DNA from: a virus
Lineage: Duplodnaviria > Heunggongvirae > Uroviricota > Caudoviricetes
Strand: one strand, 5' to 3'
Virus record (IMG/VR): IMGVR_UViG_2675903313_000009
Length of the DNA stretch: 64,000 nt
Position numbers and translations under genes: made by a program. Shown piece after piece: positions 4,957-62,734 of the stretch. The number at the start of each line of letters is the position of its first letter. The stretch's first letter is position 1. The notes under the pieces are model-generated. The model was not told the origin of the DNA, did not search any database, and was given only the letters and a program-made list of their open reading frames with translations.

Positions 4957-5268
4957 ATGAAAAAATCATTGGTTCTTGGTCTGGACAAAGACCAGAAGAA
5001 AAAAGAGAAGCCTGCGCTGGTTGCTCAATTAACTTTGCTGGACATCGTTGCCAATGGAACCTCTATTCGTCTGTTCCGTGAAACAGCGGTGTCTTTCGAT
5101 AAAAACACCTTTACTCGTTATGTAATGAATGTTCGTCGCCAGCGTGGAAAAGGCTGGGTGGCATTTCAAAGAATGTGGCCGGAACATCAGCTCGAACTGG
5201 CTTTGATGGAAGTTAACCGCGTGGCCCAGCAAGAAATTCAGAGAGCATCAGTGATGGCAATAGCCTGA
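4957..5268 (+). CDS. Hypothetical small basic protein
   Basis: ORF with RBS; followed by terminator. Confidence 0.5.
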   Translation: MKKSLVLGLDKDQKKKEKPALVAQLTLLDIVANGTSIRLFRETAVSFDKNTFTRYVMNVRRQRGKGWVAFQRMWPEHQLELALMEVNRVAQQEIQRASVMAIA

Positions 5269-5302
5269 TAATGTGCAAGTGGTAATTAGTCGACCGTACG
5301 AC

Positions 5303-5331
5303 AGCCCCGCCATCCTTACGGGGCTTTTTTT
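5303..5331 (+). terminator. Rho-independent terminator
   Basis: Stem agccccg/cggggct followed by T7. Confidence 0.85.
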
Positions 5332-5336
5332 GTATT

Positions 5337-5352
5337 GTAAGTACATACTTAC
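5337..5352. promoter_or_regulatory. Palindromic TAAGTA..TACTTA motif copy
   Basis: gtaagtacatacttac, perfect palindrome. Confidence 0.4.
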
Positions 5353-56746: not shown

Positions 56747-57217
56747 GTGAAAGCTGATTTGTCAAAAATCCCTTCTATTTCAGGAAATAACGGTTATTCA
56801 CTTCGTTGTGAGGAAGTAAAGATAAACGGTGAGTCGGCATATTGCAGCTACTCCGTTTGCCAGCACACCATTCTTGCCTTCAAAGAAAACCGTCTTCCTC
56901 GAACTTCATTCCAGTCGTGCGCAACCGCTATCAAAGCAGGCAAATGCAAGGCGTTAAAAATGATGGTTGAAGAGATTCGTAAAGGAGAATCTCTGTATTT
57001 CGAAGATATGACCGCGCTCATTAAGGAGGTTGAAGAACGGAATAAACAAGCCAGAACTTTAAAACGAAAACGTGACAGTGTAACGATTAATAGCATGGTT
57101 AAGAAGAGCACCACATCACAAACAGCGATCACTGACGTGTATGCGGCGTTGCTTGAAGAAACAACAAAAGAAACACATGAGCAAATCGATCAACATATGG
57201 AGGTAAAACAACAATGA
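56747..57217 (+). CDS. Hypothetical protein
   Basis: 156-aa ORF (GTG start in track). Confidence 0.4.
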   Translation: MKADLSKIPSISGNNGYSLRCEEVKINGESAYCSYSVCQHTILAFKENRLPRTSFQSCATAIKAGKCKALKMMVEEIRKGESLYFEDMTALIKEVEERNKQARTLKRKRDSVTINSMVKKSTTSQTAITDVYAALLEETTKETHEQIDQHMEVKQQ

Positions 57218-58536
57218 AAAAGTTGATCGCACTTAAGCATAAGCTGGACGAAATGAAAGCTATGGGAACCAATGCAAAAAAAGAGGCATTGGCCAACATG
57301 GATGACTTCGAGCAAAGCATGGTTTCATTGATGCTCAACCCTTTCATCCGTTTTGGGGTAAAGAAATACAAAGTGGCAGAGCCGCTTAGTGAGTCCATCC
57401 CAAGTGACGAAAAAGCCATTGATGTACTGAATAAGCTGGCCTCTCGCGAGCTAACGGGGAACGCAGCAATAGCTGCTGTTGAGTCTATCGTGGCGTCAAT
57501 GTGCGCCGATGGGCAGGACGTGTTCCGTCGTTTCCTCTTAAAAGACCCGAAAGCGGGTGTTGGGATTAGCCTATGCAACAAGGTTTTTGAAAATCCCATT
57601 CCGAAATTCGAGGTGCAGCTGGCGTCACCGTATAAAGAAAAAGGCGACAAATACCCCTTCAAGCCAAATCCTAAAGCAAAATGGCCGATGATTGGCAGCC
57701 TTAAGCTCGATGGTTTGCGAGTAATTTGCGAGGTTATTGTTGACGAAGAAGAGGTTAACTTCCTTTCTCGTACTGGTAATCCAATCACGTCTCTCGATCA
57801 CCTAAAGCCAGCCATGCTCGAATTAGGCAAACTTTCAGGCCACAAACACATCTTCTTCGATGGTGAAGGCACAGCCGGTTCATTTAACCAGTCCGTATCT
57901 GCATTGCGCAAAAAGAACGTGCAGGCAATTGGCGCTATTTATCATATTTTCGACTTCTTCCTACCGGAATGGCGAGCACAGGCTAAATCCAAAGAGTATG
58001 CAAAGACAGGTATGAAGCTGAAAGAGCGCCTGGCTATGCTGGTGGCGTTGTTCAAAAACGATCGCAGTGAAGGCTACACACAAGACATTCACCTGCATCC
58101 GTTCTATATCATCCATAGCCACGAAGACTTCATCGAACGCTTCATGAAACGCCTGGACGATAACGAAGAAGGGGAGATGGGCAAAGATCCGAACTCTGTT
58201 TACGAGTTTAAACGTACCCGCAGCTGGTGGAAGTTAAAAGACGAAGATTCAGAAGATGGTGAAATTATCGACTTTGAGCCGGGCGATCCGGACTCTGGTT
58301 TTGCCAACACGCTTGGAAAAATTGTTATTCGCCTTGAAAACGGTGTGATTGTTCGTGCGAGCGGCATTAAGCATAAATATCTGGACGAGATCTGGAACAA
58401 CAAAGAGAAGTACCGTGGTCGTATTGTCGAGGTTCATTGTCACGAGAAAACGCCGGATGGCAGCTTACGCCACCCACGACTGAAATGGCCGCGTTGCTTA
58501 CGCGATACAGAAGATCGAATCGGAGATAAAGAATGA
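57214..58536 (+). CDS. ATP-dependent DNA ligase
   Basis: Adenylation motif I KLDGLR (SLKLDGLRV); about 150-aa N-terminal extension. Confidence 0.85.
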   Translation: MKKLIALKHKLDEMKAMGTNAKKEALANMDDFEQSMVSLMLNPFIRFGVKKYKVAEPLSESIPSDEKAIDVLNKLASRELTGNAAIAAVESIVASMCADGQDVFRRFLLKDPKAGVGISLCNKVFENPIPKFEVQLASPYKEKGDKYPFKPNPKAKWPMIGSLKLDGLRVICEVIVDEEEVNFLSRTGNPITSLDHLKPAMLELGKLSGHKHIFFDGEGTAGSFNQSVSALRKKNVQAIGAIYHIFDFFLPEWRAQAKSKEYAKTGMKLKERLAMLVALFKNDRSEGYTQDIHLHPFYIIHSHEDFIERFMKRLDDNEEGEMGKDPNSVYEFKRTRSWWKLKDEDSEDGEIIDFEPGDPDSGFANTLGKIVIRLENGVIVRASGIKHKYLDEIWNNKEKYRGRIVEVHCHEKTPDGSLRHPRLKWPRCLRDTEDRIGDKE

Positions 58537-58712
58537 TGCTCGGTTGGATGATTGCATTTTTAGCAGTTGGTTTTTTCATAGGTATTGTGGTGATGTCCAG
58601 TTGCATCAATGACTACATTAAAAGCGGTGTTATAGAAAGACGCGGTCGTATTTATCGCATTGTAGAAATAACCAACACCGTGAAGGAGATTAAGGATGAT
58701 CGTATTAAGTAA
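58536..58712 (+). CDS. Small single-pass membrane protein (paralog 1)
   Basis: 58-aa ORF found by eye; TM helix then RIYRIVEIT; start overlaps ligase stop (ATGA). Confidence 0.45.
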   Translation: MLGWMIAFLAVGFFIGIVVMSSCINDYIKSGVIERRGRIYRIVEITNTVKEIKDDRIK

Positions 58713-58911
58713 ACGGGAGAAGGAAACGCTTCATGAAATCAGTAAGTGGCCGGAGTTCCCTGAGTACTGGAAGCCTAAAACGCGAGCTAAGTTAGAGCGT
58801 TTAGGGTTGGTTGCAAACGTTTCTGAAACGTGGTGTTCGGCCAACTACCAGTTAACTGATAAAGGGAAAGTATTGCTACAGCAATTAGTAGAATCAGGAG
58901 TGTTAAAATGA
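58696..58911 (+). CDS. Hypothetical small protein
   Basis: 71-aa ORF overlapping neighbours. Confidence 0.4.
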   Translation: MIVLSKREKETLHEISKWPEFPEYWKPKTRAKLERLGLVANVSETWCSANYQLTDKGKVLLQQLVESGVLK

Positions 58912-59060
58912 TTCCATACATCTCATTAGCTTTTATGGGTGGCTTCCTTATCGGCTTCGGCATCTGTCGTGATTTAATTAAGCAGGAACTTAAAACCAAA
59001 ACACTGTGCATCGGAAAGCGTGTGTATCGGGTAGTTCATGAAACAAAGGTGAAAAAATGA
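58908..59060 (+). CDS. Small single-pass membrane protein (paralog 2)
   Basis: 50-aa ORF found by eye; TM helix then RVYRVVHET; ATGA overlaps at both ends. Confidence 0.45.
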   Translation: MIPYISLAFMGGFLIGFGICRDLIKQELKTKTLCIGKRVYRVVHETKVKK

Positions 59061-59347
59061 TCAATTTGACTTCTTGGAACTGGTGGTTGGCCACCTATTT
59101 CTTAGCGGCCGGAGTCGCATTCGCCTTTTACGTAGGTCAGTTAGTCGTAAAACTGTTGCTGATTAAATTTGCTAGTCATAAACGTATCGATGATGGTCTG
59201 TGGCGTCTTGGCACCCTGGTGGAAATTCGCTACGGGCAACTTAAGGAGAACGAAACCATTACTATCCAAGCGAAACGATTCACTGCCACCATTACAAGAA
59301 CACCTAGTCGTAGAGTGGCCTTGATCAAAAAAGTCACAACCGAATAA
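59057..59347 (+). CDS. Small membrane protein (paralog 3)
   Basis: N-terminal TM helix; basic C-terminus. Confidence 0.5.
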   Translation: MINLTSWNWWLATYFLAAGVAFAFYVGQLVVKLLLIKFASHKRIDDGLWRLGTLVEIRYGQLKENETITIQAKRFTATITRTPSRRVALIKKVTTE

Positions 59348-59356
59348 AAACATATT

Positions 59357-59378
59357 GATAAGTATTTACTTACTTATC
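59357..59378. promoter_or_regulatory. Palindromic GATAAGTA..TACTTATC motif copy (full 8-bp arms)
   Basis: gataagtatttacttacttatc. Confidence 0.45.
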
Positions 59379-59553
59379 TTTTGTGTATAAGATGACTTTG
59401 TTTTCGTTGAGACGCGACTGTTTGAACTTAAATACAAGTGCAAACGAAGAAGTCTATCTGGCAGTAGCCTAATAAGCCAAACACCAGCGAGGTCAGTTTC
59501 CAGCCTCGTTACCGAAATGGGACACACTGAGCGAGTGTGATTGCAGAACGCAG

Positions 59554-59576
59554 GAGGGAACATTCATGTTCCCTCC
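59554..59576 (+). other. Perfect 10-bp-stem hairpin
   Basis: ggagggaaca/tgttccctcc with 4-nt loop. Confidence 0.5.
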
Positions 59577-59582
59577 GATGAA

Positions 59583-59661
59583 GTAACAGAATGGGCGGTT
59601 GGTATATTTTCAACTCCATATGACTCCCGGATTCTTAGCCACTGACCGCCCATCCTGTTAC
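59583..59661 (+). other. Long-range stem-loop (17-bp stem around ~45 nt), candidate structured RNA
   Basis: gtaacagaatgggcggt pairs with accgcccatcctgttac. Confidence 0.4.
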
Positions 59662-59736
59662 GTCATTTTGTTCAATTATGTCGTTTATACTGGGTTAAAA
59701 AGCGGCGACGTAGCCCGGCTGGTATGGTTAGCCAGC

Positions 59737-59859
59737 ACACAACGTTGAGGCCATTACATTTTTATCAATTCTAAGGTTCTATTCACAGAGATACCGGCGA
59801 ACGTTGATATGTAACATGTTGGGCAAACATTCAATCGGAGTAGTGGCCTCAACGTTGTG
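59737..59859 (+). other. Long stem-loop H1 (ACACAAC..GTTGTG termini)
   Basis: 16-bp stem acaacgttgaggcca/tggcctcaacgttgt around ~90 nt. Confidence 0.45.
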
Positions 59860-60125
59860 AAGACGGGATTGTTGTGTAGGTTTAACCACTGTTGCCATTG
59901 GTGCCTGTTTTCACAACAAATGATTCCATACATCACATAGTATAAATTACAAAGTAGGTGCTGTCCTCAGAAACATCATCTACTTAAAGATTTTGCCTTC
60001 TACTATTGAGCGAAGTCGAAAGCGTCTGGCACTAACGAAAAGTGCAAGTAGCGGTGCGTTTCCTGGCAGAAACTAAACCGTCGCGATTGGCACTGTTGAG
60101 TAATAAATACTGGCAGTGCTGAATT

Positions 60126-60200
60126 GATGGTGTAGCTCAGCGGTAGAGCAGTTGGCTGTTAACCAACTGGTCGGTGGTTCGAATCCACCCACCATCGCCA
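60126..60200 (+). tRNA. tRNA-Asn (anticodon GUU)
   Basis: Cloverleaf folds by hand; anticodon loop CUGUUAA; CCA encoded; not the E. coli Asn tRNA sequence. Confidence 0.85.
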
Positions 60201-60205
60201 ATTTA

Positions 60206-60292
60206 GGGGAGTTAGTCCGTAGAGGTAGCGGTGTAGACTGTAAATCTACTGTCATGGCGACTCGGGTGGTTCGACTCCATCACTCCCCACCA
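60206..60292 (+). tRNA. tRNA-Tyr (anticodon GUA), long variable arm
   Basis: Anticodon arm gtaga-CUGUAAA-tctac; acceptor ggggagt/actcccc; CCA encoded. Confidence 0.75.
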
Positions 60293-60296
60293 AATT

Positions 60297-60372
60297 GCCG
60301 GTTTAGCTCAGTTGGTAGAGCAGTCGCTTTGTAAGCGAATGGCCAGCGGTTCAAGTCCGTTAACCGGCACCA
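60297..60372 (+). tRNA. tRNA-Thr (anticodon UGU; assignment tentative)
   Basis: Acceptor gccggtt/aaccggc; anticodon loop UUUGUAA with one mismatch in stem. Confidence 0.65.
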
Positions 60373-60462
60373 ACACAACAGGTAAGAGCATTGGGCGAAT
60401 CGGCGATACTGACCCACAAGGCCGTAAATCGATAGAGTCAGACCAGTGCTCTTACCGTTGTG
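60373..60462 (+). other. Long stem-loop H2 directly after tRNA-Thr
   Basis: acacaacaggtaagagcattgg pairs with ccagtgctcttaccgttgtg. Confidence 0.45.
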
Positions 60463-60562
60463 ATGAATGCACAGGCTGATGTGCCGCAACTACAGTAGTG
60501 CGCGCTTTGCGGGGCTTGCTACAACCCTGTGTCGGAGTTCAGTACCGACCATCACAATAGCT

Positions 60563-60649
60563 GGAGAGTAGGGAGCATGGTGCTCAAGCGGTCTTGAAAA
60601 CCGTTCCATTGTGCAAACGATGATGGTTCGATTCCATTACTCTCCGCCA
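60563..60649 (+). tRNA. tRNA-Ser (anticodon UGA), long variable arm
   Basis: Acceptor ggagagt/actctcc; anticodon loop CUUGAAA; CCA encoded. Confidence 0.8.
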
Positions 60650-60650
60650 G

Positions 60651-60729
60651 ACACAGCGTTGAGCGGTTTGGCCTTTTAATCAACTCGATTAAGACTCCGC
60701 TAACATAAACCAGACCGCTCAACGCTGTG
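60651..60729 (+). other. Long stem-loop H3 directly after tRNA-Ser
   Basis: acacagcgttgagcggtttgg pairs with ccagaccgctcaacgctgtg. Confidence 0.45.
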
Positions 60730-60803
60730 ATAGATAATTACGGCAGACGTTCTTAACCATAGCTTGCTAACATCTTAGCAACACTTTTTTCAGCGCAAAA
60801 TTC

Positions 60804-60826
60804 AAAGGGGCTTCGGCCCCTTTTTT
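60804..60826. terminator. Bidirectional rho-independent terminator
   Basis: aaaggggc ttcg gcccc tttttt, A/T runs on both sides. Confidence 0.9.
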
Positions 60827-60841
60827 GTTGAACAGTGCAAT

Positions 60842-62104
60842 TTACTTTACATAGTCGCCCAGTTTTAATATTTCGCGCTTATATTCTTTAACCATGCTAC
60901 TGGATTCAGTATAAATTCGATTTAAAAGATTATCGCTATCTTTATTCTCATTTATCTTAATGAGTGATAATTTAAATTCATAGTCATCAAATGCCACAAT
61001 CAAATGGTGGCCTGGGATTATATCTTCGTCACTCTTGAAGTATATATCTTCAAGTATGTAATCTAGTTGATTAGATTTTCTTTTCTCGATGTAATCTTCA
61101 GCCATAGCTATTACATCATTCCTGTCATTTAACCTGTTTTTTTCGGAAGGCACATCTTCGTAATGTTGCACGATTGAACAACCAATAAGGCGTGGGATGT
61201 AAACGTCAAAATGAGTAACTCTATCATTCGCGGTTTTAAGTTGTTCCTCAAAGTAGTTTCTTACATGTAAAGGCAACTTCTCAAAGTAATCATTAATTAT
61301 AGGAGAACAAGGAGTTTTATAATTCATAAGAACCGACGGTACGAGCTGTGGGCGTCGAAACATCCAGTCCCTTTTAACGTCCGATGGAACATAATAACTT
61401 TTAATGATATTATCAAAATAATTTATCATTCGAGATTTGAATATTTTATTGAATCTAAGGTTTATGAATGTATCCAGATAAGGCATATTTGAATAAGCAT
61501 CATCAAAAAATATTTCATCATTGAAAAAATCATATTTATTCAATAAACAACACAGTTTTTCCGAATTAATATGTTCACAATAATCGATTTTTAATCCAAA
61601 GATAGCAATGATCAACTTCATCTGAGGTGGGATTTTAAAAATTAATTGTGATACATACGCTCTTTTTTCCTTGAGACATTCCCCATCAATATAAAATGAA
61701 CTATCCACATACTCAAATATATTAATAATATGCTTCACATACTGTATTACCTCATGCTGTTTTACCAATGGGTAATAGAGTCTATGTAACTCATCGCTGT
61801 TTAAATTAATTTTGTGTTTATCGATAATTTGTTTTGCAAGAAGACATAACGCATCATGTTGATTTAATAAGGAATCAAACCATTGTTTAAATGCACTCTT
61901 TCGCATTTCGAACAATGATTCAGTTGTTAATTGAAGGGCTGAAAAAGCTGCTTTTGCACTTTTTCTCGCTTCGTAGGCATTCCATGCTGTTGCTATAAAA
62001 GCAAATGCTGTAGCCAATGTTCCAACAGTTTGACCATTTAAAACAACCCAATCCCAAAAAATAACGGTGAGCAGTAGTATAATAATGAAAATTAAAAAAG
62101 GCAT
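60842..62104 (-). CDS. AT-rich membrane-anchored protein of unknown function
   Basis: 420-aa minus-strand ORF; two N-terminal hydrophobic helices; GC far below neighbours; own terminator. Confidence 0.6.
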   Translation of the reverse strand: MPFLIFIIILLLTVIFWDWVVLNGQTVGTLATAFAFIATAWNAYEARKSAKAAFSALQLTTESLFEMRKSAFKQWFDSLLNQHDALCLLAKQIIDKHKINLNSDELHRLYYPLVKQHEVIQYVKHIINIFEYVDSSFYIDGECLKEKRAYVSQLIFKIPPQMKLIIAIFGLKIDYCEHINSEKLCCLLNKYDFFNDEIFFDDAYSNMPYLDTFINLRFNKIFKSRMINYFDNIIKSYYVPSDVKRDWMFRRPQLVPSVLMNYKTPCSPIINDYFEKLPLHVRNYFEEQLKTANDRVTHFDVYIPRLIGCSIVQHYEDVPSEKNRLNDRNDVIAMAEDYIEKRKSNQLDYILEDIYFKSDEDIIPGHHLIVAFDDYEFKLSLIKINENKDSDNLLNRIYTESSSMVKEYKREILKLGDYVK

Positions 62105-62278
62105 GTATGTATTTCACTCTACTAACTATAAATTATTAGGCTAATGTTAACCAAACAATGCCTTAATTAATAGATTGATCGAGGCTTTAATAGCTTTATA
62201 ATGCAGACTGCAAAGATAAGTATGCACATACCTATCTTCTTTGTAAGTAAAGTTGCATATCAATTCTATGAGGTAACA

Positions 62279-62524
62279 ATGACGATCACTATCTACGGAC
62301 GAGATAACTGCTCATACTGCAAACGTGCGGTCGAGCTGGCGAAGCAACTAAAGGGACATGGCTACGGTGATTATGAGTACATCGACATCACCACTGCCGG
62401 TATCAACAAGGAAAAACTAAGTGAAATTGTTGGTAAACCGGTAGAGACTATCCCCCAGGTGCTGATCGATGGCCAGCCGATTGGCGGATACACAGAACTG
62501 GCTGCATACGTCAGCACCCTCTGA
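62279..62524 (+). CDS. Glutaredoxin (GrxA/NrdH-like)
   Basis: CSYC active site in YGRDNCSYCKRA; GKPVETIPQ and GGYTE motifs resemble E. coli glutaredoxin 1 from memory. Confidence 0.8.
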   Translation: MTITIYGRDNCSYCKRAVELAKQLKGHGYGDYEYIDITTAGINKEKLSEIVGKPVETIPQVLIDGQPIGGYTELAAYVSTL

Positions 62525-62603: not shown

Positions 62604-62630
62604 AATGATTCCATACCTACTATGTATGGA
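62604..62630. promoter_or_regulatory. Inverted repeat upstream of integrase
   Basis: attccata..tatggaat. Confidence 0.3.
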
Positions 62631-62734
62631 ATCATTACTGAAAATGAGTTACTTTTACTCTTGATCCTATAAGAATCTATGCCTAATATACTGTTTACTT
62701 ATACAGTGAATCGGCGTAACTCGGTGATTGTCAT

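What the first reader, a model, noticed from the sequence alone, without database searches (positions are those of the whole stretch)
59554..60729. Phage tRNA cluster with conserved long stem-loops sharing ACACAAC..GTTGTG termini
Four non-host-type tRNAs (Asn, Tyr, Thr, Ser) are packed together. Three long hairpins (59737..59859, 60373..60462, 60651..60729) have 16-20-bp stems with the same terminal sequences, and two begin within 1-2 nt of a tRNA 3' end. Further hairpins lie at 59554 and 59583. They could be processing or stability elements or small stable RNAs co-transcribed with the tRNAs.
Basis: seen in the sequence. Interest (0 to 1): 0.5.

Follow-up and report, generated by a model that had tools for sequence, protein, structure and literature searches.

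The report
Modular structured RNAs flanking phage tRNAs
The long hairpins next to these phage tRNA genes are real and conserved, and they are copies of a modular, unannotated RNA building block that many E. coli/Klebsiella/Salmonella phages (P1, lambda-like and SSU5-like) carry; one copy is joined to a tRNA-shaped small RNA related to known prophage regulatory sRNAs.

Summary
There are four tRNAs (Asn, Tyr, Thr, Ser) and three 16-20-bp hairpins closed by CACA(A/G)C/G(T/C)TGTG, two of them starting 1-2 nt after a CCA. The window is an SSU5-like phage-plasmid.

The hairpins lie in a 1.45-kb non-coding stretch (about 59400-60826). They are conserved in about 75 relatives, with compensatory changes. 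Their G.U wobbles only make sense as RNA on the tRNA strand.

They are not tRNA-specific. The same "H clamp", with a conserved stem and a hypervariable top, occurs in phage P1's ban operon, in lambdoid late-operon leaders and cI-downstream regions, and in Klebsiella siphoviruses, usually without tRNAs.

H shares its 3' GUUGUG with the closing helix of a following "S" domain. S is a four-way junction with tRNA-like 7/4/5-bp helices and a covarying loop-loop contact. The window has one full H-S unit (60373-60561). S is a distant, sub-threshold relative of Rfam STnc100/PasD, which are Hfq-dependent prophage sRNAs.

Best reading, partly inferred: a polycistronic stable-RNA operon that is cut up to give tRNAs plus structured regulatory or scaffold RNAs, with H acting as an insulating or maturation clamp.

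Also seen: a tmRNA-like tag frame (ANEEVYLAVA**) at 59440-59475.

The parts
59366..59393 (+). Promoter-like sequence: TTACTT, 16 nt, TAAGAT. The region is invariant in relatives.
   Evidence: It is conserved in alignment A2. The homologous module in phage wV8 has TTGACA-17-TATAGT at the same distance from GTTTTCGTT. The sigma-70 scan did not call it, so this part is inferred.
59400..59552 (+). 'T' module: a nearly invariant leader RNA that carries a tmRNA-like tag frame at 59440-59475, GCA AAC GAA GAA GTC TAT CTG GCA GTA GCC TAA TAA = ANEEVYLAVA**.
   Evidence: Shown. Weak Rfam tmRNA hits appear. Homologues are present in 320 phage records.
59553..59576 (+).
   Evidence: Found. It covaries strongly, with 5 of 11 pairs showing compensatory changes.
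59578..59666 (+).
   Evidence: Found. It is conserved in nearly all relatives and its pairs are kept.
59718..59736 (+). Small hairpin GCTGG / CCAGC that abuts HP1.
   Evidence: pairs 656-661 with 669-674, one of them compensatory. The same arrangement of 'small hairpin, 1-3 nt, CACAAC' is seen upstream of H in other phages.
59737..59859 (+). HP1: an H-type clamp hairpin, CACAACGTTGAGGCC.. / ..GGCCTCAACGTTGTG.
   Evidence: Shown. Compensatory variants include GAGACC/GGTCTC, GAAGCC/GGCTTC and GAGATC/GATCTC.
59854..59917 (+). S1: a reduced S-type domain. Its closing helix is GTTGTGAAGACGGG / CCTGTTTTCACAAC, and its 5' strand re-uses the GTTGTG of HP1.
   Evidence: (repeat I8). Relatives carry compensating versions, read from A2. 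Model R1 does not detect it.
59920..59931 (+). ATGATTCCATAC motif, operator- or promoter-like. It may split the region into two transcription units.
   Evidence: There are 4 copies in the window against 0.33 expected. It is invariant at this site in all relatives.
60126..60372 (+). tRNA-Asn, tRNA-Tyr and tRNA-Thr, separated by 4-5 nt.
60373..60462 (+). HP2: an H clamp, CACAAC-A-GGTAAGAGCATTGG / CCAGTGCTCTTACC-GTTGTG, with a 48-nt allele-specific top.
   Evidence: Shown. At least 9 different loop alleles sit on the same stem within SSU5-like phages, and 74-83 distinct H sequences occur in other phages.
60455..60561 (+). S2: a tRNA-shaped four-way junction.
- P1: 60459-60465 paired with 60550-60556.
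- hp-a: 60469-60484.
- Variable core: 60485-60530.
- hp-b: 60531-60549.
- Loop-loop pairing: 60075+400 i.e. 60475-60479 with 60539-60543.
   Evidence: Model R1, which was trained without this allele, scores it 68.6 bits with E = 2e-15. Covariation of the scaffold is shown.
60563..60649 (+). tRNA-Ser(TGA).
60651..60729 (+). HP3: an H-type clamp, CACAGCGTTGAGCGGTTTGG / CCAGACCGCTCAACGCTGTG, with the conserved loop motif AAGACTCCGC.
   Evidence: Shown. Two pairs are compensatory (UA<->CG and GC<->AU), and a U.G wobble is kept in 11 of 12 sequences.
60730..60826 (+). Conserved 3' tail plus the intrinsic terminator (stem 60804-60823, then a T run). Together with HP3 it forms a 3'-external-spacer RNA of about 175 nt.
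   Evidence: The terminator is found. The tail is conserved in all 12 diverse relatives.

Best explanation
The hairpins are RNA helices of a modular phage non-coding RNA system. They are transcribed on the tRNA strand as part of one or two long untranslated transcripts (about 59400-60826) that also carry the four tRNAs.

**What each unit is**
- Each 'H clamp' is a 19-20-bp helix closed by CACAAC/GUUGUG. It carries a freely evolving apical domain and sits directly against the 3' end of the preceding folded RNA, which may be a tRNA CCA, a small hairpin or a terminator.
- Its 3' GUUGUG is also the 5' strand of the closing helix of the next domain (S). The base of H and the P1 helix of S therefore cannot both be fully formed.
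- S is a tRNA-shaped four-way junction: a 7-bp P1, a 4-bp arm with an 8-nt loop, a hypervariable core, and a 5-bp arm with a 9-nt loop that abuts the P1 3' strand. The two loops pair with each other. S is a distant relative of the Hfq-dependent prophage sRNAs STnc100/PasD.

**Inferred mechanism**
- tRNA-processing nucleases cut the precursor: RNase P at tRNA 5' ends, and RNase E and/or RNase III at or in the clamps.
- This releases the tRNAs and also compact, nuclease-resistant H, H-S and HP3-tail-terminator RNAs.
- H insulates neighbouring folds and holds back the folding of S until it is cut.
- The variable cores are specificity determinants, either base-pairing seeds or ligand surfaces, that act on host or phage RNAs.

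**Shown versus inferred**
- Shown: structure, strand, modularity, distribution, and the relationship to STnc100-type RNAs.
- Inferred: the cleavage enzymes, the stability of the products, and the regulatory function.
For: **Structure is conserved and real**
- HP1, HP0 and the 59553 hairpin keep their pairs through compensatory changes. HP3 does the same.
- The H stems of 74 distinct copies, oriented by S, give WC 1223, G.U 114 and A.C 11. The sense strand is more stable in 68 of 74.
- The layout is conserved in about 75 SSU5-like loci, down to 58% aa identity of the neighbouring ORF.
- The non-coding leader is more conserved than that ORF.

**H lies directly after a folded RNA**
- A hairpin of 15 bp or more lies within 3 nt of the CCA at 46 of 49 distinct terminal-tRNA junctions, against 9 of 830 random positions.
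- In other phages H follows a small hairpin or a terminator within 1-8 nt.

**The same module occurs elsewhere**
- It is found in P1, with 94.8% identity over 115 nt to window 60442-60556.
- It is also in HK629 and IME207 and in at least 120 IMG/VR contigs.
- Every nearby tRNA is on the same strand as the module.

**The S scaffold covaries**
- 95.4% of cells are paired, and 10 pairs show a compensatory change against 1.3 in shuffles, with 0 of 500 shuffles reaching that.
- The loop-loop pair is G-C in 54 copies, G.U in 12, A-U in 6 and A.C in 0.
- One copy has a fully compensated P1, GAUUGGAUG/CAUCCAAUC.
- Model R1 finds window 60455-60561 at 68.6 bits. It also finds the loci that Rfam STnc100 hits at 33-44 bits.

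**Links to known sRNAs**
- STnc100/PasD are Northern-verified, Hfq-dependent prophage sRNAs associated with Q antiterminator and holin-lysozyme genes (PMC8550237; bioRxiv 10.64898/2026.05.13.724894). STnc100 has also been detected as RNA by RT-qPCR (PMC12370729).
- The H-S copies I found have the same neighbours: a Q protein upstream and a holin downstream.

**Three-way covariation of the shared hexamer**
- One P1 copy has CGUAAC / GUUGCG / CGCAAC in place of the usual hexamers.
Against: - There are no expression or processing data for this element in any phage searched.
- The window's own S2 gets no Rfam STnc100 hit even at E <= 10. Even the best relatives stay below the gathering score.
- S2 has no terminator of its own, whereas typical Hfq sRNAs do.
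- No complementary target of 12 nt or more for any loop or core was found in the 64-kb window.
- The tops of HP1 and HP3 are conserved rather than hypervariable within the family, so 'variable specificity' applies mainly to HP2-type units.
- Phage N4 has hairpins of unrelated sequence right after its tRNAs. That fits a plain tRNA 3'-end role at least as well.
- The nuclease or nucleases are unknown.
- A U.U mismatch is conserved in the stem, giving UGCUCUUU, which is boxA-like. This hints at a sequence-specific factor that my model does not include.
Confidence: 0.55

Rival explanations
1. The hairpins are only tRNA 3'-end formation or stability signals. A long duplex directly after the CCA stands in for a downstream tRNA, acting as an RNase III or RNase P/E entry site or as an exonuclease block, and has no function of its own.
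For: - Hairpins follow exactly those tRNAs that lack a close downstream tRNA: 46 of 49 junctions against 1% of random positions. The tightly spaced Asn-Tyr-Thr tRNAs have none between them.
- Relatives with a single tRNA-Asn still have the hairpin 0-2 nt after the CCA.
- N4 has long hairpins of unrelated sequence right after tRNA-Thr, after a tRNA-like element and after tRNA-Pro.
- The stems are about 20 bp, which is the length of an RNase III substrate (established knowledge).
Against: - About 80% of H-S copies in other phages have no tRNA within 1.5 kb.
- H also follows terminators and small hairpins.
- HP1 is 267 nt upstream of the first tRNA and does not follow any tRNA.
- The apical domains are long and structured, are kept as discrete alleles, and some contain T-arm-like hairpins.
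- The 3' hexamer is tied to a following S domain that covaries.
Confidence: 0.2
2. The elements are tRNA mimics that act as decoys or sponges for tRNA-binding proteins, such as tRNA-targeting defence nucleases or transferases, or modification or processing enzymes. The hypervariable parts would then reflect an arms race.
For: - S has tRNA-like 7/4/5-bp helices and a D/T-like loop-loop contact.
- Many H tops contain consensus T-arm hairpins (GGTTCGAATCC-type), often right before the 3' strand of the stem.
- The modules occupy the same genome niches as phage tRNA genes and are co-oriented with them.
- The co-resident tRNAs (Asn, Tyr, and a His variant in L056) belong to the Q-family. These are targets of known anticodon nucleases (knowledge).
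Against: - There is no anticodon-like arm.
- CCA is not conserved after P1: it is in register in only 2 of 26 sequences.
- There is no tRNA model hit.
- The characterised relatives, PasD and STnc100, behave as Hfq-bound base-pairing sRNAs (PMC8550237).
Confidence: 0.13
3. The elements work at the DNA level, as attC-like or MITE-like recombination sites or cruciforms that move small cassettes (tRNAs or spacers) between phages. On this view the RNA structure is incidental.
For: - The termini carry ..AAC / GTT.., there is a bulged base next to them, and the central part is variable, as in integron attC sites.
- Presence and absence vary among phages that are 94-98% identical.
- Arrays of 1-4 units occur.
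- Phage Cyrano has an 'empty' site that keeps a single CACAAT.
Against: - G.U outnumbers A.C by 114 to 11 on the transcribed strand. This points to RNA, not to a folded bottom-strand DNA.
- The tops are not palindromic.
- The S scaffold has a pseudoknot-type loop-loop covariation that is meaningless for DNA recombination.
- No integrase or transposase is among the ORFs on either side of the window's non-coding stretch (57214-59344, 60845-62104, 62201-62521).
- The polymorphism is equally well explained by homologous exchange between the conserved clamps.
Confidence: 0.07

Closest known systems
STnc100 (Rfam RF02076) and PasD1/PasD2 prophage sRNAs of Salmonella, EPEC and EHEC
   Same: - They share the multi-branch fold: it is closed by a UGGUG/CACCA-type helix, AAU is followed by a first hairpin, and a last 5-bp hairpin abuts the 3' strand (alignment compared).
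- They share the phage niche between the Q antiterminator and the holin (bioRxiv 10.64898/2026.05.13.724894).
- The core between the conserved flanks is variable.
   Different: - The window copy does not score with the Rfam model. The best relatives reach 33-44 bits against a gathering score of 47.
- The window copy sits between two tRNAs in a phage-plasmid and has no terminator of its own.
- It is preceded by the H clamp, which is not part of the Rfam model.
- Neither the tRNA-like 7/4/5 geometry nor the loop-loop pairing is mentioned in the passages of those papers that I read.
tRNA-operon spacer-derived sRNAs of E. coli, such as 3'ETS-leuZ and the metZWV internal spacers (from my own knowledge: Lalaouna et al. 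2015)
   Same: They are non-coding RNA made from the transcribed spacer or trailer of a tRNA operon, bounded by the tRNA 3' end and the operon terminator. HP3 plus tail plus terminator (60651-60826) has exactly this position.
   Different: - The host examples are short and largely unstructured sponges.
- Here the spacer RNAs are large, highly structured, modular, and also found away from tRNAs.
Phage T4 stable RNAs species 1 and 2 (rnaC, rnaD), which are co-transcribed with the T4 tRNA cluster (from my own knowledge)
   Same: They are small stable RNAs of unknown function that are encoded next to phage tRNAs and processed from the same precursor.
   Different: No sequence or model relationship was tested, and T4 RNAs C and D are not known to be modular or widespread across phage families.
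P1/P7 C4 and P4 CI immunity RNAs, which are processed from longer transcripts by RNase P (from my own knowledge; Rfam C4 was seen in L090)
   Same: They are phage or phage-plasmid small RNAs cut out of untranslated leaders by tRNA-processing enzymes. Variable loops set their specificity.
   Different: - C4 and CI are hairpin RNAs of about 70-77 nt with known cis targets.
- No target complementarity was found here, and there is no sequence similarity.
Integron attC sites
   Same: They are imperfect hairpins of 60-140 nt with ..AAC / GTT.. at the base, a bulged base and a variable middle, and they occur in arrays.
   Different: - The strand asymmetry here indicates an RNA on the sense strand.
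- The full RYYYAAC/GTTRRRY consensus is not met.
- There are no cassette ORFs and no integrase nearby.
PeSL mobile regulatory cassettes of T4-type phages (from my own knowledge: Arbiol et al. 2010)
   Same: They are conserved stem-loop cassettes at the borders of variable segments, and they promote modular shuffling between phage genomes.
   Different: - PeSLs combine an early promoter with a short stem-loop.
- H clamps have no promoter, are much longer, and carry variable internal domains.

Membership tests
Rfam RF02076 STnc100 / PasD | Scores at or above the family's gathering score (47 bits) with the Rfam covariance model. | tested here: not met
   The window gives no hit at E <= 10. Relatives score 41.3 bits (L010), 43.8 bits (L068) and 33.4 bits (P1). 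The common lambdoid H-S copies give no hit at E <= 0.01.
Rfam RF02076 STnc100 / PasD | Multi-branch fold closed by a UGGUG/CACCA helix, with a first hairpin after AAU and a last 5-bp hairpin that abuts the 3' strand. | tested here: met
   The consensus and structure line are shown. The same architecture covaries in A5. Model R1 hits both window S2 (68.6 bits) and the STnc100-type loci (35-39 bits).
Rfam RF02076 STnc100 / PasD | Own Rho-independent terminator at the 3' end. | tested here: not met
   S2 ends 6 nt before tRNA-Ser. The only terminator is at 60804-60823. Many lambdoid copies do have a terminator 20-60 nt downstream.
Rfam RF02076 STnc100 / PasD | Hfq-dependent stability and base pairing with mRNA targets. 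| not testable with these tools
   The only evidence is from the literature on PasD (PMC8550237).
canonical tRNA (RF00005) | Cloverleaf that scores with the tRNA model or with ARAGORN. | tested here: not met
   Only the four tRNAs are called. Nothing is called at 60373-60561 or in the other hairpins.
canonical tRNA (RF00005) | 7-bp acceptor stem, 4-bp D stem, and a 5-bp T stem that abuts the acceptor 3' strand, with D-loop/T-loop contact. | tested here: met
   The loop-loop pair statistics are. This is a resemblance of shape only.
canonical tRNA (RF00005) | Anticodon arm and a 3' NCCA end. | tested here: not met
   A hypervariable core replaces the anticodon arm. CCA is in register in 2 of 26 sequences (alignment).
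integron attC | R'' RYYYAAC and R' GTTRRRY boxes. | tested here: inconclusive
   The AAC/GTT triplets are present, but ACACAAC and GTTGTGR each break the consensus.
integron attC | Functions as folded bottom-strand DNA and is associated with an IntI integrase and cassette ORFs. | tested here: not met
   G.U against A.C is 114 to 11, which favours a sense-strand RNA. No integrase is among the ORFs flanking the non-coding stretch. The units contain no ORFs.
tmRNA (for the leader 59400-59552) | Tag reading frame that begins at a GCA resume codon and ends in a stop, and encodes an ANDENYALAA-like peptide. | tested here: met
   The frame reads ANEEVYLAVA**. Nine peptide variants with synonymous changes are seen, there is no conserved in-frame start, and 1-2-nt indels lie upstream.
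tmRNA (for the leader 59400-59552) | tRNA-like domain with an acceptor stem carrying G3.U70, a T arm and a 3' CCA. | tested here: not met
   ARAGORN finds none at default or -ps settings, and only an unconvincing call at -ps70. Rfam tmRNA models score 14-24 bits.
tRNA-spacer-derived sRNA (3'ETS type) | Lies between the last tRNA and the operon terminator on the same strand. | tested here: met
   HP3 plus tail, 60651-60826.
tRNA-spacer-derived sRNA (3'ETS type) | Released by RNase E and bound by Hfq. | not testable with these tools
   No expression or binding data are available.
RNase III processing stem | About two turns of nearly perfect duplex RNA. | tested here: met
   The stems are 19-20 bp. 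Whether they are cleaved is not testable.

The most novel reading that the evidence does not exclude
The T, H and S modules together form a previously unrecognised phage RNA system built from tRNA/tmRNA-derived parts.

- T is a tag-encoding mRNA-like module: AN[DE][END]x[YF]LAVA, with no start codon.
- S is a tRNA-shaped domain.
- H is a clamp that controls how S folds.

In this reading the phage supplies its own split, or otherwise non-canonical, trans-translation RNA, or a decoy of the host's tmRNA. The hypervariable H/S cores would make it a programmable scaffold. All of this would be carried, unannotated, by P1, lambdoid phages, Felix-O1-like phages and SSU5-like phage-plasmids.
Probability: 0.12. 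Interest if true: 0.9.

Novelty: new variant of a known kind. Interest (0 to 1): 0.62.

Why it matters
If this reading is right, several things follow.

- A large fraction of the unannotated "empty" DNA next to tRNAs, after Q/pR' and after cI in enterobacterial phages is a modular RNA toolkit. This includes phage P1, where the annotated plp and upl ORFs lie on the opposite strand over these modules.
- The reading gives a structural definition, namely the H clamp and the tRNA-shaped S scaffold with variable cores. That definition ties the orphan sRNAs STnc100/PasD of pathogenic E. coli to phage tRNA operons.
- It suggests how such RNAs are matured, by tRNA-processing enzymes and a folding clamp.
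- It supplies hundreds of natural variants for testing what the variable cores recognise.
- It flags a widespread tmRNA-like tag element in phages.
- On the practical side, phage and plasmid annotation pipelines, and Rfam, currently miss all of it.

Tried and rejected
1. Known RNA families. Rfam at gathering score and at E <= 10 found only the tRNAs in the window. No ribozyme, GOLLD/ROOL, DicF or Y-RNA match was credible.
2. Antisense targets. No complement of 12 nt or more for any loop or core was found in the 64 kb. Short c4-like targets of 7-9 nt cannot be excluded.
3. Coding explanation. ORFs of at most 70 aa overlap the hairpins on both strands. The indel-rich, allele-swapping cores and the arrays are incompatible with conserved proteins.
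4. attC or MITE. Rejected on strand asymmetry and the lack of a recombinase.
5. S as a real tRNA or as the tRNA-like domain of tmRNA. It has no CCA, no G3.U70 and no model hit.
6. boxA antitermination site. The 3' arm of most H copies reads UGCUCUUU, at the price of a U.U mismatch, but it is buried in a stable stem. This could not be tested and is left as an observation.
7. Literature on SSU5/pHCM2 and P1 ban-operon RNAs. Nothing relevant was found, and the P1 genome paper is not held.
8. Genome-contig scan with the neighbouring ORF.
9. First hairpin-after-tRNA test. It was too permissive, with 27% of random positions passing. It was repeated with strict criteria.
Full report
**What is there**

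The window is an SSU5-like phage-plasmid. It is 99% identical to E. coli plasmids such as NZ_CP035843 and close to phages CMS-2020a and Cyrano.

A 1.45-kb stretch without credible ORFs lies between the ORF at 59057-59347 (+) and the ORF at 60842-62104 (-). It ends in a strong intrinsic terminator at 60804-60823.

ARAGORN and Rfam agree on four + strand tRNAs with encoded CCA:
- tRNA-Asn, 60126-60200
- tRNA-Tyr, 60206-60292
- tRNA-Thr, 60297-60372
- tRNA-Ser, 60563-60649

- They fold far better than shuffles, with z-scores of -7.2, -5.6 and -10.1.
- All three close with CACA(A/G)C / G(T/C)TGTG.
- Only five perfect hairpins of 13 bp or more exist in the 64 kb, and two of them are HP1 and HP3.
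- The two smaller features at 59554 and 59583 are also real. One is an 11-bp hairpin at 59553-59576 and the other is a hairpin with 22-nt arms at 59578-59666.

No Rfam family other than tRNA matches the region, even at E <= 10.

**Conservation and strand**

I collected about 75 related loci from IMG/VR and three from genomes, using the upstream ORF as the query. That ORF is 58-97% identical at the amino-acid level across the set.

The order of elements is kept throughout: small hairpin, HP0, HP1, tRNA(s), then a hairpin directly after the last tRNA. Distant relatives have only tRNA-Asn, yet the hairpin still starts 0-2 nt after its CCA.

With strict criteria, a hairpin of 15 bp or more lies within 3 nt of the CCA at 46 of 49 distinct "terminal tRNA" junctions. 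The same test passes at 9 of 830 random positions.

The stems are kept by compensatory changes:
- HP1: GAGGCC/GGCCTC becomes GAGACC/GGTCTC, GAAGCC/GGCTTC or GAGATC/GATCTC.
- HP3: two double changes, UA<->CG and GC<->AU.

The lowest 10-11 bp never change. U.G wobbles are fixed on the + strand, for example GGTTTGG/CCAGACC.

The whole leader from 59400 to 60125 is more conserved than the neighbouring protein. Its predicted fold has 163 pairs, and 25 of them show compensatory changes.

**The Thr-Ser spacer is modular**

Phages that are otherwise 94-98% identical differ in this spacer.
- Cyrano has no HP2 at all, and only ACACAAT remains there.
- Other phages have one to four units.
- Each unit has the same stem, CACAAC-A-GGTAAGAGCATT / AATGCTCTTACC-GTTGTG, but an unrelated top. 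At least nine alleles were seen.

Each hairpin (H) is followed by a second domain (S).
- The closing helix of S starts with the same GTTGTG and ends in a second CACA(AC).
- The layout is therefore 5'-CACAAC-H-GTTGTG-S-CACAAC-3'.
- The middle hexamer can pair with either flank, but not with both at once.
- HP1 is followed by a reduced version of S at 59854-59917, whose distal pairs covary.
- One copy in P1 has changed all three hexamers coherently, to CGTAAC / GTTGCG / CGCAAC.

**The module is not tRNA-specific and not SSU5-specific**

A BLAST of HP2+S2 found phage P1, at 94.8% identity over 115 nt.

In P1 the C1-controlled ban operon runs as follows: promoters, a dicF-like region, a homologue of the window's leader, an H, trnA, trnT, three H-S units, tciABC, trnI. 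The annotated plp and upl CDS lie on the opposite strand across these units.

The module is also present elsewhere:
- In lambdoid HK629 it lies between an HNH gene and the holin, with no tRNA nearby.
- In the Klebsiella siphovirus IME207 it lies upstream of tRNAs.

- About 95 of these have an H directly upstream of S.
- There are 83 distinct H and 83 distinct S sequences, with conserved clamps and hypervariable cores.
- Only about 20% have tRNAs within 1.5 kb, and those tRNAs are always on the same strand.
- Upstream neighbours are Q antiterminators (about 39 of 71) or CI-type repressors (18 of 71). Downstream neighbours are holins (about 30 of 55).
- H is always preceded within a few nucleotides by the end of another folded element: a tRNA CCA, a small GC hairpin or an intrinsic terminator.

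Phage N4 has long hairpins of unrelated sequence immediately after three of its tRNA or tRNA-like genes.

**RNA, not DNA**

The orientation of H can be fixed independently by the adjacent S domain. Doing this for 74 distinct H stems gives 1223 Watson-Crick pairs, 114 G.U and 11 A.C. The sense strand is the more stable one in 68 of 74. That asymmetry is expected for a sense-strand RNA and not for a DNA cruciform or a bottom-strand attC.

Two irregularities are conserved in H:
- a bulged A directly after CACAAC;
- in 34 of 74 copies, a U.U mismatch that makes the 3' arm read UGCUCUUU.

**The S domain**

I aligned 26 non-redundant S sequences, leaving out the window's allele. The scaffold has these parts:
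- P1: a 7-bp core, UGUGGUG/CACCACA.
- A 3-nt junction, AAU.
- hp-a: a 4-bp stem with an 8-nt loop.
- A hypervariable core of 30-120 nt.
- hp-b: a 5-bp stem with a 9-nt loop, directly abutting the P1 3' strand.
- A six-base loop-loop pairing, GCUGAU/AUCAGC.

On this scaffold 95.4% of cells are paired. Ten pairs carry compensatory changes, against 1.3 in shuffles, and 0 of 500 shuffles reach the observed value.

For the variable loop-loop position the combinations are G-C 54, G.U 12, A-U 6 and A.C 0. One copy has a completely different but complementary P1.

The 7/4/5 helix lengths, the T-like arm abutting the acceptor-like strand, and the D/T-like contact give S a tRNA shape. It has no anticodon arm and no conserved CCA.

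A covariance model built from this alignment finds window 60455-60561 at 68.6 bits, with E = 2e-15.

**Link to known RNAs**

The same model also hits a second S subtype, in P1, L010 and L068. Rfam's STnc100 model recognises that subtype at 33-44 bits, just under its 47-bit gathering score. The alignment shows the same closing helix and the same first and last hairpins.

What is known about STnc100 and its structural relatives PasD1/2:
- They are prophage-encoded sRNAs whose conserved neighbours include Q antiterminator genes, with a holin-lysozyme operon usually nearby.
- They are Northern-verified and Hfq-dependent, and they have RIL-seq partners (PMC8550237; bioRxiv 10.64898/2026.05.13.724894).
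- STnc100 has also been detected as RNA by RT-qPCR (PMC12370729).

The window's own S2 and the commonest lambdoid subtype are not detected by the Rfam model. I therefore treat S as a broader superfamily that includes STnc100-type RNAs, not as a member of RF02076.

In some phages S has a TTGACA-18-TACATT promoter in place of H (sequences). This fits the idea that H is the element used when S must be cut out of a longer transcript.

**Most likely mechanism (inferred)**

One or two long untranslated transcripts are dismantled by tRNA-processing enzymes. The products are the tRNAs and compact structured RNAs. A conserved ATGATTCCATAC motif at 59920 may mark a second start.

H acts as a fold insulator and as a clamp that keeps the 5' strand of S's P1 occupied until H is cut or opens.

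HP3 plus its invariant tail and the terminator (60651-60826) has the position of a 3'-external-spacer sRNA.

The variable cores would carry specificity.

None of the cleavage or binding steps could be tested. No target complementarity of 12 nt or more was found in the window.

**Rivals**

The rivals are a pure tRNA 3'-end signal, tRNA-mimic decoys, and DNA-level recombination sites. They are weighed in the dedicated fields.

**Verdict**

- The element is a new variant and extension of a known kind, the phage/prophage structured sRNAs of the STnc100/PasD type and tRNA-spacer RNAs. It adds an undescribed clamp module and a much wider distribution than is currently annotated.

Noticed in passing
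window 59400-59552 (tag frame 59440-59475); P1 locus L086 about 285-460; L209 (wV8) 905-1060; L210 (HK620) 858-1035; L211 (KP591P3) 860-1020: A tmRNA-like tag frame with no start codon: GCA AAC GAA GAA GTC TAT CTG GCA GTA GCC TAA TAA = ANEEVYLAVA**. The E. coli SsrA tag is ANDENYALAA**.

- Nine peptide variants, AN[DE][END]x[YF]LAVA, differ by synonymous changes. Indels of 1-2 nt just upstream rule out a normal ORF.
- Homologues are present, unannotated, in 320 phage records, including Felix-O1-like phages, HK620 and Klebsiella siphoviruses, and also in P1.
- Some copies have their own sigma-70 promoter.
- No tRNA-like domain (acceptor stem, T arm, CCA) was found.

   Followed up: partly
window 58908-58919, 59920-59931, 62605-62616 (+), 62624-62635 (-): ATGATTCCATAC occurs four times, against 0.33 expected. 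Two of the copies form a perfect 13-bp palindrome at 62604-62636. The copy at 59920 is invariant in all relatives. It is probably an operator or a phage-specific promoter element.
   Followed up: partly
P1 NC_005856 69472-70041 (L086 871-1440): The annotated P1 genes plp and upl lie on the strand opposite to, and entirely across, three conserved H-S RNA units downstream of trnT. These ORFs may be annotation artefacts.
   Followed up: no
N4 locus L083 1151-1240, about 1385-1495, 1583-1670: Phage N4 has long hairpins (13-24 bp) of unrelated sequence starting right after the CCA of tRNA-Thr, of an unannotated tRNA-like element, and of tRNA-Pro. One loop holds a consensus T arm, TTAGGTTCGAATCCTAA. 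The N4 record annotates no tRNAs here.
   Followed up: no
H 3' arm, e.g. window 60446-60456; 34 of 74 H copies elsewhere: The 3' arm of most H clamps reads (CAG)UGCUCUUU(CC), which is identical to the core of the rrn boxA antitermination element. It is kept at the cost of a conserved U.U mismatch. The window copy reads UGCUCUUA, as in lambda boxA.
   Followed up: no
L056 5317-5391 and 4489-4750: One relative has tRNA-His(GTG) at the position where all the others have tRNA-Asn(GTT), which looks like an anticodon switch. It also has a 260-nt insertion inside the conserved leader.
   Followed up: no
L070 about 5097-5260; L069 about 5098-5340: After tRNA-Asn there are tRNA-like genes interrupted by inserts of about 60 nt (a tRNA-Thr-like gene) and about 170 nt. 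Each has an intact T arm and CCA, and each is followed directly by an H clamp. These may be intron-containing or disrupted tRNAs.
   Followed up: no
upstream of H in many loci, e.g. L037/L038 arrays and L100, L113, L190: Further recurrent non-coding modules precede H. One is an element of about 85 nt ending in GCTCCACGAAACGGAGC. Another ends in CCTGGGAAGAGACCAGG and is typical of the cI-downstream context. The 'RNA islands' therefore have more module types than H, S and T.
   Followed up: no
E. coli RefSeq chromosomes (e.g. NZ_CP023820 2750102-2750326): The HK629 allele of the H-S unit alone is present in 340 of 5426 complete E. coli genomes, and it never has an annotated feature under it.
   Followed up: no
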